Positions 56,686 through 58,101 of a DNA stretch of 64,000 bases are shown here, one piece after another (positions within the stretch are counted from its first letter, which is position 1; the number at the start of each line of letters is the position of its first letter). The notes below the pieces were generated by a model. That model made no database searches and was not told the origin of the DNA. It worked only from the letters and a program-made list of their open reading frames with translations. The translations under genes were made by a program, and so were the position numbers. This DNA is from a phage: the sequence record PZ386966.1, one strand, 5' to 3'.

Positions 56686-58101
56686 ATGAGCGAATTATTT
56701 AAACATGCGCACCTTCATGCAGGTCGAACTGAAAATGGTGCTGTAAACCATACTTCATCAATGTCTGCTCTTGTAGACTTTTACAAAGCTGCTGGTTCAA
56801 GCCGTAGCAACGTAGAAATTTTACCAGACCTGTTCTACAAAGCTTTGCGTGAGGATGTTGATGTTGCAGTTCGTATTTTGCTTCATATGCGAGATGTACG
56901 AGAAGGTATGGGTGAGCGTAAAGCCTTCAGAACTGTTTTACTTCAAGCGATTGAAGACAAAGTTTTAGAGCCTACGCAGGTTCTTCGCATTATGGATAAG
57001 ATTGCAGAACTTGGTCGTTTTGATGACTTCAAAATCTTCGTAGGTACTCGTTTCGAGACAGATGCCTTCAAACATCTAGAAGCAGCATTACTAGACCCTG
57101 CAACAGCAGGTTTGGCGGCTAAGTGGTTACCACGAGTCAAACCACGTCATAAGCAGTTTGTAAAACGTTTCTGCAAGTTTGCCAACTTGAGTGAGAAAGA
57201 GTACCGCACACTGTTGTCTGCACTATCTGATACAGTTGAGCAAAAAATCTCTGCTAATGAGTTTGGTAAGATTGACTACAGTAAGATTCCTTCACTTGCT
57301 GCTGCACGTTACCAAAAACTGTTTAACCGCAAAGATGGAGAACGCTACAAAGCTTACATCGAGTCCTTATCAAAGGGTGAGGCTAAGATTAATGCTGGTG
57401 CTGTTTACCCATACGATGTAATTAAATCTGTTAAGCATGGTAATGCAGATGTTGCTAATGAGCAGTGGAAAGCACTACCAAACTGGATGGCAGAGGGTGA
57501 AAACATCTTGTGTATGTCTGATGTTTCAAGCTCAATGTCTTGGGTGAATTTTGGTTCAATTACTGCTCTTGATATTGGTGTTTCACTTGCATTGTATGTA
57601 GCAGAACGTAATACAGGTTGCTTTAAGAATGAGTTGATGGTTTATTCAACAAACCCTCACTTCATCGAACTGAGTGGTGATTTACGAAACCGTCATCGTC
57701 AGGTGATGCGTCATGTTGAGTATGGTTCAACTAACTTACAAGCAGCTTTTGACCGTATTCTTGAGATAGGTAAGAGAAACAACTTGACTCAGAAAGATAT
57801 GCCAAGTAAGCTTATTATCTTCTCTGATATGGAGTTCAATCAGGTTGACGGTGCAAATGGTCGTACAAACTTTGAAGCAATTCAGAGCAAGTACAAAAAA
57901 GCTGGATATGAGATGCCACAACTGGTATTCTGGTACTTAGCAAACCGTAATGGTACTTGCGAAGTATCTGTTAAGGATAACGGTGTAGCAATGGTATCAG
58001 GGTTCTCTCCAGCCACTTTAAAAGCTCTGCTTGGTGGTGAGAAGTTTGACCCAATCAGTGTAATGCTCAAAGCAGTAATGATTGACCGTTATATCTGGTA
58101 A
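56686..58101 (+). CDS. vWA-domain protein, TROVE/DUF2828-like (Ro60-related architecture)
   Basis: 471 aa; MIDAS-like SDVSSS motif at start of C-terminal third; family assignment is from memory. Confidence 0.4.
   Translation: MSELFKHAHLHAGRTENGAVNHTSSMSALVDFYKAAGSSRSNVEILPDLFYKALREDVDVAVRILLHMRDVREGMGERKAFRTVLLQAIEDKVLEPTQVLRIMDKIAELGRFDDFKIFVGTRFETDAFKHLEAALLDPATAGLAAKWLPRVKPRHKQFVKRFCKFANLSEKEYRTLLSALSDTVEQKISANEFGKIDYSKIPSLAAARYQKLFNRKDGERYKAYIESLSKGEAKINAGAVYPYDVIKSVKHGNADVANEQWKALPNWMAEGENILCMSDVSSSMSWVNFGSITALDIGVSLALYVAERNTGCFKNELMVYSTNPHFIELSGDLRNRHRQVMRHVEYGSTNLQAAFDRILEIGKRNNLTQKDMPSKLIIFSDMEFNQVDGANGRTNFEAIQSKYKKAGYEMPQLVFWYLANRNGTCEVSVKDNGVAMVSGFSPATLKALLGGEKFDPISVMLKAVMIDRYIW

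What the first reader, a model, noticed from the sequence alone, without database searches (positions are those of the whole stretch)
56686..58101. vWA-domain, TROVE/Ro60-like protein encoded directly upstream of the tRNA array
The 471-aa protein has a C-terminal vWA-type region opening with a MIDAS-like SDVSSS motif, preceded by a ~270-aa helical region, the domain order of Ro60/TROVE proteins that bind misfolded or tRNA-like small RNAs. Its position next to ~26 tRNA genes and several structured spacers suggests a role in tRNA or small-RNA handling, or in countering host anticodon nucleases. The family assignment is from memory and needs confirmation.
Basis: inference. Interest (0 to 1): 0.55.

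Follow-up and report, generated by a model that had tools for sequence, protein, structure and literature searches.

The report
Phage Ro60-like protein with partner RNAs
The gene encodes a phage version of the ring-shaped RNA-binding protein Ro60, already shown in a near-identical phage to defeat a bacterial defence system. It is accompanied, here and in hundreds of unrelated phages, by a previously undescribed family of small RNAs that closely resemble the enigmatic 'Class I' RNAs of social amoebae.

Summary

What appears new is a conserved small-RNA module: (A)AAG, a 7-bp covarying terminal helix, UNC(A/C)GCAA, a variable insert, then CUGA. A covariance model gave 93 matches in 76 viral loci, all on the gene's strand, and 70% lie within 500 nt of the gene. 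An independent set of 80 genome loci gave 75 of 76 on the gene's strand. The window carries four copies (58801-59674), and the last encloses a YrlA-like permuted tRNA-like domain. tRNA adjacency itself is facultative.

The module matches dictyostelid Class I RNAs in length, ends, stem and motif. No protein-RNA binding has been shown.

The parts
56617..56646 (+). Sigma-70-like promoter of the Ro-like gene (TTGACA-18-TAAAGT), set within an inverted repeat
   Evidence: 10 of 12 match; sequence read
56686..58101 (+). Ro60-like protein gene (471 aa; Pfam DUF2828 + DUF7788; PHROG 850); orthologue of Bas63 gp130
   Evidence: (460/471 identical to bas63_0130)
56767..57474 (+). Alpha-helical (HEAT-like) region, residues about 28-263, which superposes on the Ro60 ring
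57505..58077 (+). vWA-fold domain, residues about 274-464 (Pfam DUF7788; VWA_2 below threshold)
57520..57534 (+). MIDAS DxSxS motif (D279-V-S281-S-S283). The remaining MIDAS residues T349 and D381 are also invariant
   Evidence: invariant columns
58120..58240 (+). Two sigma-70-like promoters (58120-58148 and 58211-58240) between the gene and tRNA-Pro, each within an inverted repeat
   Evidence: sequence
58267..63556 (+). tRNA array of 25 genes, interrupted by ORFs and long spacers
58801..58877 (+). Small-RNA module M1: AGAAGACCAA-UUACAGCAA-insert-UUGGUCU-GGUCAU
   Evidence: R1 48.7 bits (this was a seed); R2 39.6 bits, E 1.4e-6
58968..59035 (+). Small-RNA module M2
   Evidence: R1 51.0 bits (seed); R2 40.4 bits, E 9e-7
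59450..59529 (+). Small-RNA module M3
   Evidence: R1 41.6 bits (seed); R2 29.9 bits; weak Rfam Dicty_Class_I_RNA match of 14.6 bits
59539..59674 (+). Small-RNA module M4: the same scaffold enclosing a tRNA-like domain. This is the YrlA-like candidate Y RNA. It was not used as a seed
   Evidence: R2 36.8 bits, E 6e-6, full model
59595..59646 (+). Permuted tRNA-like core of M4: T-arm GAAGG-UUCGAUU-CCUUC, acceptor stem closed by a loop (ACUCGGC-AGAU-GUCGAGU), then D-arm GUGU-AAUGGUA-GCAC
   Evidence: compensatory changes in the acceptor hairpin in Sf13, SUSP1 and Citrobacter HP1; descriptor scan gave 29 hits on the + strand, 0 on the - strand and 0-2 in shuffles

Best explanation
The ORF encodes a phage Ro60-type ring protein: an alpha-helical solenoid closed by a vWA domain with an intact metal site. 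It belongs to the sequence-divergent DUF2828/DUF7788 branch.

I propose that it works as a ribonucleoprotein, as Ro60 does with Y RNAs. In this model it binds phage-encoded small RNAs of a conserved class: a terminal 7-bp helix flanked by (A)AAG and CUGA, with UNC(A/C)GCAA next to the 5' strand. The constant scaffold would be the protein-binding site. The variable insert, which in module M4 is a tRNA-like domain of YrlA topology, would be the effector module that engages host tRNA- or RNA-processing enzymes or nucleases. The window has four such RNAs in the first 900 nt of the tRNA array, and they are probably released when the array transcript is processed.

The biological output is counter-defence and RNA-end control. 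The 98%-identical Bas63 gp130 neutralises the Ppl ATPase-PHP system. Because gp130 alone rescues T7, I infer that the ring itself captures or shields a nucleic-acid end, or the effector, and that the RNAs tune or retarget this activity.

Shown here: the fold, the conserved MIDAS, the gene-RNA linkage, and covariation in the RNA. Shown in the literature: the anti-Ppl phenotype. Inferred: protein-RNA binding, enzyme recruitment and the end-capture mechanism.

For: Orthology: 98% identity to Bas63 gp130. The gp130 deletion is sensitive to Ppl and is complemented, and gp130 transfers protection to T7 (PMC11482910).

RNA partner: model R1 gave 93 hits at E<=1 in 1.34 Mb, all on the gene's strand. 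65 of the 93 lie within 500 nt of the gene, where 5.5% of the bases lie. 49 of 76 loci have one there, including 26 of 37 loci without any tRNA. The helix is 91-94% paired, against 61-62% in shuffles and 30-46% when the partner columns are slid. Replication on 80 independent genome loci gave 75 of 76 hits on the gene's strand. The module is also found next to homologues of only 26-34% identity in Listeria, Enterococcus, Staphylococcus and Mycobacterium phages.

Y-RNA likeness: Rfam YrlA gives sub-threshold matches at these elements, from 26.7 to 47.8 bits. Precedent: phiLo Ro60 binds Yrl RNAs encoded beside its gene and binds host PNPase (PMC12135203). Context: RtcB and an HD phosphohydrolase lie close to the Listeria phage homologue.
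Against: No binding experiment exists, so the RNA-protein partnership rests on genomic linkage only.

gp130 alone protects T7 from Ppl, so at least that activity does not need the phage RNAs.

Roughly a third to a half of the loci have no detectable module. 15 of 76 viral loci have no hit. Only about 38 of 80 genome loci have a hit on the gene's strand, by my reading of the hit table. Campylobacter and Sinorhizobium phages have no hit.

The seed modules were chosen with a descriptor that required a helix, so part of the pairing signal is there by construction. The strand asymmetry and the independent replication are the controls for this.

No Rfam family reaches its gathering score on these elements. 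Expression and the ends of the RNAs are unknown.
Confidence: 0.55

Rival explanations
1. The protein is a protein-only anti-defence factor. The Ro60 fold has been re-used as an inhibitor or decoy that binds Ppl, or its nucleic-acid substrate, directly, for example through the MIDAS face of the vWA domain. The neighbouring RNA modules are functionally unrelated.
For: gp130 expressed from a plasmid or from the T7 genome restores T7 plaquing on the Ppl strain. T7 encodes no tRNAs, and nothing suggests it carries these modules, although I did not scan it. vWA MIDAS sites are classical protein-protein interaction sites: the isolated vWA hits are Midasin-UBL, integrin and Ku80-peptide complexes. Many loci have no detectable module.
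Against: This does not explain why the RNA module stays beside the gene, on the same strand, across phages of Proteobacteria, Firmicutes and Actinobacteria whose proteins are only 26-45% identical. It also does not explain why the helical ring, rather than only the vWA domain, is conserved. Host RNAs could serve as partners in the T7 experiment.
Confidence: 0.2
2. The protein is a tRNA-array chaperone. It monitors and helps process or discard misfolded or damaged phage tRNA precursors, as Ro60 handles misfolded pre-5S rRNA. Its position at the head of the tRNA array reflects that role.
For: 38 of 75 non-Felix loci have tRNA or tmRNA genes in the flanks, all on the same strand as the gene. By my count from that table, 19 have one within 1 kb. 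Modules far from the gene lie inside tRNA arrays. RtcB ('tRNA splicing ligase') lies near the Listeria phage homologue. Some modules carry tRNA-like domains.
Against: 37 of 75 loci have no tRNA within about 10 kb, yet 26 of those still have the RNA module. The orthologue acts in T7, which encodes no tRNAs. Bas63 tRNAs were mostly non-essential on the four laboratory strains tested.
Confidence: 0.12
3. The RNA modules are not trans-acting RNAs. They are cis elements such as RNase processing signals, attenuators or terminators of the transcripts that carry the gene and the tRNAs, or a mobile repeat family that hitch-hikes in this region.
For: They occur in tandem arrays of 3-5 copies. They lie between tRNAs, where processing signals are expected. 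No dedicated promoter or terminator was seen for individual modules in the window.
Against: They occur upstream or downstream of the gene at variable distances, and also in loci without tRNAs. The helix sequence differs in every lineage, whereas ACAGCAA and the AAG/CUGA flanks are fixed. That is the signature of recognition by a protein rather than of a repeat that copies itself. Their architecture equals that of Class I RNAs, which are abundant stable RNAs in Dictyostelium (PMC7919456). Some embed YrlA-like domains.
Confidence: 0.1

Closest known systems
Bas63 (Escherichia phage JohannRWettstein) gp130, a Ppl counter-defence protein (PhageMaP preprint, PMC11482910)
   Same: It is the same gene: 460 of 471 residues are identical, in the same position upstream of the same tRNA array. 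The authors already noted the Ro60-like predicted structure and the tRNA adjacency.
   Different: They speculated that some annotated tRNA genes might be Y RNAs. Here the annotated tRNAs look canonical, and the Y-like candidates lie in unannotated spacers. In Bas63 those spacers partly carry small minus-strand 'hypothetical' ORFs, bas63_0137 and bas63_0138. The mechanism against Ppl is still unknown.
Ro60/Rsr with Y RNAs (Xenopus and human Ro60; D. radiodurans Rsr-Yrn1-PNPase 'RYPER'; Salmonella Rsr-YrlA/YrlB)
   Same: The fold is a helical ring plus a vWA domain with MIDAS. Small RNAs are encoded beside the gene on the same strand. Those RNAs have a constant stem module and a variable module that can mimic tRNA, with short and tRNA-like versions side by side, as with YrlB and YrlA.
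   Different: Sequence identity is 10-16%, and TROVE is not detectable by HMM. The helical region is about 270 aa. The RNA scaffold is a 7-bp helix plus ACAGCAA, in place of the GNCGAA-containing stem of YrlA or the bulged helix of metazoan Y RNAs. Only the tRNA-like part matches Rfam YrlA in L027 and L077.
phiRo60 of Thermus phage phiLo with Yrl1 and Yrl2 (PMC12135203; PDB 9KOP, 9L5Y)
   Different: The deposited chain is named a TROVE domain-containing protein and is 14-16% identical to the window protein. Its Yrl RNAs were defined by a CGAA motif. It was shown to bind host PNPase, which has not been tested for this family.
Dictyostelid Class I RNAs (Rfam RF01414; Kjellin et al. 2021, PMC7919456)
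   Same: Median length is 58 nt in both. Both have a terminal stem of 6-7 bp that covaries, a conserved 5' (A)AG and 3' CUG, the motif (C)UUACAGCAA directly after the 5' strand, and an A-rich tract before the 3' strand, with the rest variable. Profiles built from one class recognise the other above controls.
   Different: Scores are far below Rfam's threshold: 14.6-14.7 bits against 41.5. The spacing from the invariant G to the motif differs by one nucleotide. Class I RNAs have their own DUSE promoters and a known RRM-protein partner (Rnp1A). No link to a Ro-like protein is known, and the class was reported as unique to Dictyostelia. Common descent, a shared type of protein partner, or convergence cannot be told apart here.

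Membership tests
Pfam DUF2828 (PF11443) + DUF7788 (PF25043) | Scores above the curated gathering thresholds of both models, in this order | tested here: met
   DUF2828 scores 104.1 bits (cut-off 29) and DUF7788 scores 149.2 bits (cut-off 27.1). All listed homologues carry PF11443, and nearly all also carry PF25043.
TROVE / Ro60 (Pfam TROVE; Ro60, Rsr) | Sequence match to the TROVE domain | tested here: not met
   No TROVE hit at E<=1 in Pfam. A 41-sequence profile finds no Ro60 chain in the PDB at E<=10.
TROVE / Ro60 (Pfam TROVE; Ro60, Rsr) | Fold: an alpha-helical repeat ring followed by a C-terminal vWA domain, matching over the full length | tested here: met
TROVE / Ro60 (Pfam TROVE; Ro60, Rsr) | MIDAS motif (DxSxS...T...D) in the vWA domain | tested here: met
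   D279, S281, S283, T349 and D381 are invariant in 41 homologues.
TROVE / Ro60 (Pfam TROVE; Ro60, Rsr) | A cognate small RNA (Y RNA) encoded nearby on the same strand | tested here: inconclusive
   A conserved RNA module is tightly linked to the gene, and some copies are YrlA-like. Binding has not been tested.
TROVE / Ro60 (Pfam TROVE; Ro60, Rsr) | Binds Y RNA on the outer surface and single-stranded RNA ends in the central cavity | not testable with these tools
   Needs RIP/CLIP, gel shifts or a structure of the complex.
vWA domain (Pfam VWA_2, PF13519) | Score above the gathering threshold | tested here: not met
   22.2 bits against a cut-off of 27. The fold is nevertheless vWA.
YrlA Y RNA (Rfam RF02553), for window module M4 | Score at or above the gathering threshold of 69 bits | tested here: not met
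   No YrlA hit on the window element even at E<=10 in a 301-nt search. Related elements score 26.7-47.8 bits.
YrlA Y RNA (Rfam RF02553), for window module M4 | A tRNA-like domain with T-arm, D-arm and an acceptor-like stem closed by a loop, with the RNA ends at the anticodon-arm position | tested here: met
   Read directly at 59595-59646. The acceptor hairpin is kept by compensatory changes in three lineages. The same topology is matched by YrlA model positions 24-84 in L027 and L077.
YrlA Y RNA (Rfam RF02553), for window module M4 | A GNCGAAN0-1G motif in the terminal Ro-binding stem | tested here: not met
   The only such motif (GGCGAAGG at 59592) lies in the T-stem, not in the terminal helix. 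The terminal helix is followed by UUUACAGCAA instead.
Dictyostelid Class I RNA (Rfam RF01414), for modules M1-M4 | Score at or above the gathering threshold of 41.5 bits | tested here: not met
   14.6 bits for M3 and 14.7 bits for M4, E about 5.
Dictyostelid Class I RNA (Rfam RF01414), for modules M1-M4 | About 60 nt; a short covarying terminal stem; an 11-nt motif CCUUACAGCAA adjacent to the 5' strand; conserved AAG start and CUG(U) end | tested here: met
   Family features are taken from PMC7919456.
Dictyostelid Class I RNA (Rfam RF01414), for modules M1-M4 | Expressed as abundant discrete RNAs; DUSE promoter; Rnp1A binding | not testable with these tools
   No expression data for these phage regions were accessible. 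DUSE is a eukaryotic promoter element and does not apply.
Ppl counter-defence protein (Bas63 gp130) | Orthology to the experimentally tested protein | tested here: met
   98% identity over the full length, and the same locus.
Ppl counter-defence protein (Bas63 gp130) | Restores plaquing on a Ppl-expressing host | not testable with these tools
   Reported for Bas63 gp130 only (PMC11482910).

The most novel reading that the evidence does not exclude
The phage modules and the dictyostelid Class I RNAs are one RNA class. This class is the cognate 'Y RNA' of DUF2828-type Ro60 paralogues, and it is conserved, or was exchanged, between phages and eukaryotes. If so, the function of Class I RNAs, unresolved for about 20 years and thought to be specific to Dictyostelia, would be that of Ro-like RNP scaffolds. 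One of the uncharacterised Class I pull-down proteins, such as DDB_G0281243, or another dictyostelid protein, would then be a DUF2828/DUF7788 protein.
Probability: 0.25. Interest if true: 0.9.

Novelty: new variant of a known kind. Interest (0 to 1): 0.72.

Why it matters
Ro60-Y RNA particles are a conserved but still poorly understood RNA-surveillance machine, and phage versions are now being tied to counter-defence.

Several consequences follow if the linkage found here reflects binding. A large, sequence-divergent branch of Ro60-like proteins, with thousands of phage and prophage genes annotated mostly as 'hypothetical', 'vWFA' or 'DUF2828', would gain a defined RNA partner with a simple, mutable recognition code: a helix plus ACAGCAA. 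That would make the anti-Ppl activity of gp130 mechanistically tractable. It would explain the unannotated 'structured spacers' in Felix O1-type tRNA arrays. It would give annotators a covariance model for a widespread phage small RNA.

The near-identity of this scaffold with Dictyostelium Class I RNAs gives a concrete, quickly testable hypothesis for the protein partner and function of an abundant eukaryotic ncRNA class whose role has been open since 2004.

Tried and rejected
1. Fold search against AFDB50, to see which organisms carry the protein and Dictyostelium in particular. The library was not available.

2. The YrlA seed alignments from Chen et al. 2014 are not held as supplements. The PhageMaP supplements, needed for fitness data on Bas63 g137 and g138, are not held either. 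Avesson 2011 and Aspegren 2004 are not held.

3. The identity of DDB_G0281243 could not be established. It is mentioned in only one paper and is absent from the held supplements.

4. The GNCGAAN0-1G motif of classical YrlA occurs once in the region but lies in the T-stem. I judged this coincidental for Ro binding.

5. A MAFFT alignment of the long, tRNA-like modules (A3) was too poor in the 3' half to build a model. I used a descriptor scan and the short-module model instead.

6. An unanchored test of the enclosing helix barely beat mismatched controls, because AT-rich flanks give chance 6-7 bp helices. It was replaced by the test anchored to CNGCA. The first generic module finder was noisy on both strands until the tail requirement was added.

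7. Nine descriptor hits, out of the 24 that lay in the surveyed loci, were discarded or set aside. Four are tandem-tRNA artefacts and three have their T-arm inside a called tRNA. Two more have CCA-like loops and only 6 of 7 acceptor pairs, and could be degenerate tandem tRNAs.

8. The sub-threshold tmRNA-like Rfam hits in spacer 59995-60300 were not pursued.

9. I considered that the protein is a generic vWA adhesion or assembly factor. This is rejected because the match to Ro60 covers 392 residues, including the helical region.
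Full report
**1. The observation.**
An ATG-initiated ORF of 471 aa lies at 56686-58101 on the + strand. A sigma-70-like promoter precedes it at 56617-56646. After 166 nt containing two more promoter-like sites, a tRNA array follows. ARAGORN tRNAs from 58267 to 63556, and Rfam adds one at 58719-58790.

**2. What the window is.**
The region is 96-98% identical to Felix O1-like myoviruses of E. coli and Salmonella, genus Felixounavirus. In those records the gene is annotated as 'hypothetical protein', 'vWFA protein', 'DUF2828 family protein' or 'RNA-binding protein'.

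**3. Family and fold.**
- Pfam assigns DUF2828 (104 bits) followed by DUF7788 (149 bits). VWA_2 is below threshold, and TROVE is not hit at E<=1.
- PHROG 850 ('RNA-binding protein') matches end to end.
- Neither the sequence nor a 41-member profile finds any solved structure by sequence.
- An AlphaFold2 model built on that alignment is confident, with pLDDT 86 and pTM 0.87.
- The twelve best Foldseek hits are all full-length Ro60 chains: Xenopus, human, D. radiodurans Rsr and Thermus phage phiLo.
- The five MIDAS residues D279, S281, S283, T349 and D381 are invariant.

The protein therefore has the Ro60 architecture, but it is not a TROVE-family member by sequence.

**4. What is already known.**
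- Mycobacteriophage annotators already call homologues 'Ro-like RNA binding protein'.
- The PhageMaP preprint (PMC11482910) studied Bas63, a Felixounavirus. Its gp130 is 98% identical to this ORF and occupies the same locus.
- Deleting g130 makes Bas63 sensitive to the Ppl system (ATPase + PHP domain), and complementation restores plaquing. gp130 supplied from a plasmid or inserted into T7 restores T7 plaquing on the Ppl strain.
- The authors noted the Ro60-like structure and the position upstream of the tRNAs, and speculated that some tRNA genes might be Y RNAs.
- The Thermus phage phiLo Ro60 binds two Y-like RNAs encoded beside its gene and binds host PNPase (PMC12135203).
- Chen et al. 2014 found YrlA RNAs near Ro60 in 22 phages, but searched only genomes with TROVE-annotated proteins (PMC4201824).

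**5. Is tRNA adjacency the conserved feature?**
I fetched 80 viral loci that encode homologues, 75 of them non-Felix at 39-45% identity. Of those 75, 38 have tRNA or tmRNA genes in the flanks, and every one is on the gene's strand. The other 37 have none within about 10 kb. tRNA adjacency is therefore frequent but facultative.

**6. A tRNA-like element in a spacer.**
- In the 457-nt spacer 59363-59819 there is one T-arm hairpin outside the called tRNAs.
- Reading on from 59595 gives a T-arm, an acceptor 3' strand, a 4-nt loop, an acceptor 5' strand, UG and a D-arm.
- This is a circularly permuted tRNA-like domain whose acceptor stem is capped by a loop, so it cannot be aminoacylated.
- The capped stem is kept by compensatory changes in Mooglevirus, Suspvirus and Citrobacter relatives, while the T- and D-arms stay nearly invariant.
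- A descriptor for this architecture gave 29 hits on the gene's strand, none on the other strand, and 0-2 in shuffles, over 1.5 Mb.
- After removing tandem-tRNA artefacts, free elements remain near the gene in several unrelated lineages. Distances from the gene are -77, +62, -224, -800 and -1394 nt.
- Rfam's YrlA model hits two of them through its tRNA-like portion: L027 at 39.2 bits and L077 at 26.7 bits, model positions 24-84.
- YrlA also gives full-length sub-threshold matches next to the Enterococcus, Mycobacterium and Sinorhizobium phage homologues, at 47.8, 37.9 and 35.9 bits.

**7. The scaffold.**
- All these elements are enclosed by a helix whose sequence differs in every lineage. Its 5' strand is followed by UNC(A/C)GCAA and its 3' strand by GAUA-like sequence.
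- Anchored to the motif, the helix is 7-10 bp in 12 of 13 elements, against 31% of mismatched flank pairs (p about 8e-7).
- The same scaffold occurs without the tRNA-like insert. A descriptor gave 34 such modules on the gene's strand against 4 on the other strand.
- Nineteen short modules aligned cleanly. Their helix is 94% paired, against 62% in shuffles and 32-45% when slid.

**8. Covariance-model survey.**
- Model R1 gave 93 matches at E<=1 in 1.34 Mb, all on the gene's strand.
- 65 of the 93 lie within 500 nt of the gene ends, where 5.5% of the bases lie. 49 of 76 loci have one there, including 26 of the 37 loci without tRNAs.
- On all 93 matches the helix is 91% paired, against 61% in shuffles.
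- The iterated model R2 finds modules beside homologues of only 26-34% identity in Listeria (three tandem copies), Enterococcus, Staphylococcus and Mycobacterium phages.
- In mycobacteriophage Nicholas I read three tandem modules directly after the gene, the middle one tRNA-like, followed by a terminator-like GC-rich hairpin and a T run.
- In 80 independent loci from bacterial and archaeal genome assemblies, 75 of 76 matches are on the gene's strand, mostly just upstream of the gene and often in arrays of 3-5.
- Not all loci have a hit. 15 of 76 viral loci have none, as do most of the Lachnospiraceae/Clostridia branch and the Campylobacter and Sinorhizobium phages.

**9. In the window.**
R2 finds exactly four modules in 64 kb on both strands: 58801-58877, 58968-59035, 59450-59529 and 59539-59674. 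The last was not a seed and encloses the tRNA-like core. The next-best hit has E 0.36. Inserts elsewhere vary: some are permuted tRNA-like, some are ordinary-order tRNA-like with the helix in the acceptor position, and some are unrelated hairpins. A constant stem with a variable module is the design of Y RNAs.

**10. Resemblance to Dictyostelium Class I RNAs.**
- In a narrow Rfam search the nearest model for the short modules was Dicty_Class_I_RNA. The scores of 14.6-14.7 bits, E about 5, are far below threshold.
- Kjellin et al. 2021 define Class I RNAs as about 60 nt, starting AAG and ending CUGU. They have a 6-bp terminal stem conserved in structure but not in sequence, the motif CCUUACAGCAA adjacent to the 5' strand, and a variable remainder. 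They report the class as unique to Dictyostelia.
- The phage consensus is auAAAG-helix-UACAGCAAA...A-rich...-helix-CUGAuaau.
- I used the 33 distinct sequences among the curated D. discoideum Class I RNAs. Median length is 58 nt in both classes.
- The phage-only profile hits 28 of 33 real Class I RNAs, against 17 of 660 shuffles.
- A Dictyostelium-only profile places 25 of its 93 weak hits on phage modules, which occupy about 0.3% of the sequence.
- Class I RNA DdR-21 pulled down GuaB, NdkC, Rnp1A and DDB_G0281243, a protein of unknown function. I could not determine the domain content of DDB_G0281243.
- The resemblance in architecture is real. Its cause is open: common descent, a shared type of partner, or convergence.

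**11. Mechanism.**
I favour a Ro60-type RNP. The ring protein binds the helix/ACAGCAA scaffold, and the variable insert engages host enzymes, as Y RNAs tether Ro60 to PNPase. RtcB and an HD phosphohydrolase lie near the Listeria phage homologue, which echoes the bacterial rsr-yrlA-rtcBA operon. Because gp130 alone rescues T7 from Ppl, the protein itself must suffice for that activity, possibly with host RNAs. One inferred possibility is capture or shielding of nucleic-acid 3' ends from the PHP-domain effector. No binding has been demonstrated, so my confidence in the RNP model is about 0.55. Confidence in the fold and orthology is much higher.

**12. Verdict.**
The Ro60-like reading is right at the fold level and was already published for the orthologue. 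TROVE membership by sequence is not met. The tRNA-based functional inference is only partly right. The added value is the conserved companion RNA class, including a YrlA-like member in this window, and its unexpected likeness to Class I RNAs. I found no description of either in Rfam 15 or in the searchable literature.

Noticed in passing
window 58362-58717 (+); ORF listed from 58283: An HNH endonuclease gene lies between tRNA-Pro and the next tRNA. It is present in this phage, in nataliec and in Meda. Most relatives lack it: they cover only 86% of the query, in two pieces. It looks like a mobile homing-endonuclease insertion in the tRNA array.
   Followed up: partly
window 58719-58790 (+): Rfam calls a tRNA here (55 bits) that ARAGORN misses. 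Relatives annotate it as tRNA-Glu. Read by eye, the anticodon loop is CCUUCAA, so either C occupies position 33 with anticodon UUC, or U33 is kept with anticodon UCA, which would read UGA. It is an odd tRNA and worth checking.
   Followed up: no
window 56617-56655, 58112-58150, 58211-58245: Each strong promoter-like site (TTGACA-17/18-TAAAGT or TAATAT) is embedded in an inverted repeat that pairs the -35 region with sequence just past the -10 region, for example GGGTATTGACA...TAATACCC. This could be an operator or an RNA 5' hairpin.
   Followed up: no
window 60054-60300 and 60378-60961 (+): These are further long spacers in the tRNA array. The first has the best promoter match of the region (60069, 11 of 12). 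It also has sub-threshold Rfam hits to tmRNA and permuted tmRNA (29 and 15 bits) and a tRNA-Sec-like hit at 60522-60596. None contains the CAGCAA module, and their nature is unexplained.
   Followed up: no
L086 (Salmonella phage SP116) 500-735: This phage lacks the 3' part of module M4 and tRNA-Lys. The sequence jumps from the T-arm of the tRNA-like element into a tRNA 3' end, as if by recombination between T-arms. The element is therefore dispensable, at least in that phage.
   Followed up: partly
L088 (Listeria phage LMTA-34) 1428-1979 and 5075-7019: A near-threshold ROOL RNA (88.5 bits against a gathering score of 99.1) lies about 1 kb upstream of the Ro-like gene. An HD phosphohydrolase and an RtcB 'tRNA splicing ligase' lie 0.6-2.5 kb downstream. 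Together they form an RNA-repair-like neighbourhood.
   Followed up: no
L025, L037, L039, L048, L053, L062, L073, L078: Phage-encoded tmRNA genes lie about 2-7.4 kb downstream of the Ro-like gene, on the same strand, in at least eight distant loci. Modules often sit beside the neighbouring tRNA-Met.
   Followed up: no
L027 15696-15922: A group I intron (71.5 bits, above the gathering score) lies about 4 kb downstream of the Ro-like gene in a metagenomic phage.
   Followed up: no
L002 (Bas63) 32748-33022, equivalent to window about 59450-59720: The small minus-strand 'hypothetical protein' genes bas63_0137 and bas63_0138 overlap modules M3 and M4 on the opposite strand. They are probably spurious ORF calls over ncRNA genes. 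Knock-out data for them would in effect test the RNAs.
   Followed up: partly
window 56233-56604 (+): A 123-aa ORF directly upstream of the Ro-like gene is annotated as a DUF5681 protein in a relative and is conserved in Felix O1. Whether it travels with the Ro-like gene elsewhere was not examined.
   Followed up: no
L037 20038-20110; L092 (phiN3) 6127-6204: Suppressor-type tRNAs lie near the Ro-like gene in two distant phages. ARAGORN calls a 'tRNA-Pyl' with anticodon CUA in L037, and the phiN3 record annotates a 'tRNA-TERM'.
   Followed up: no
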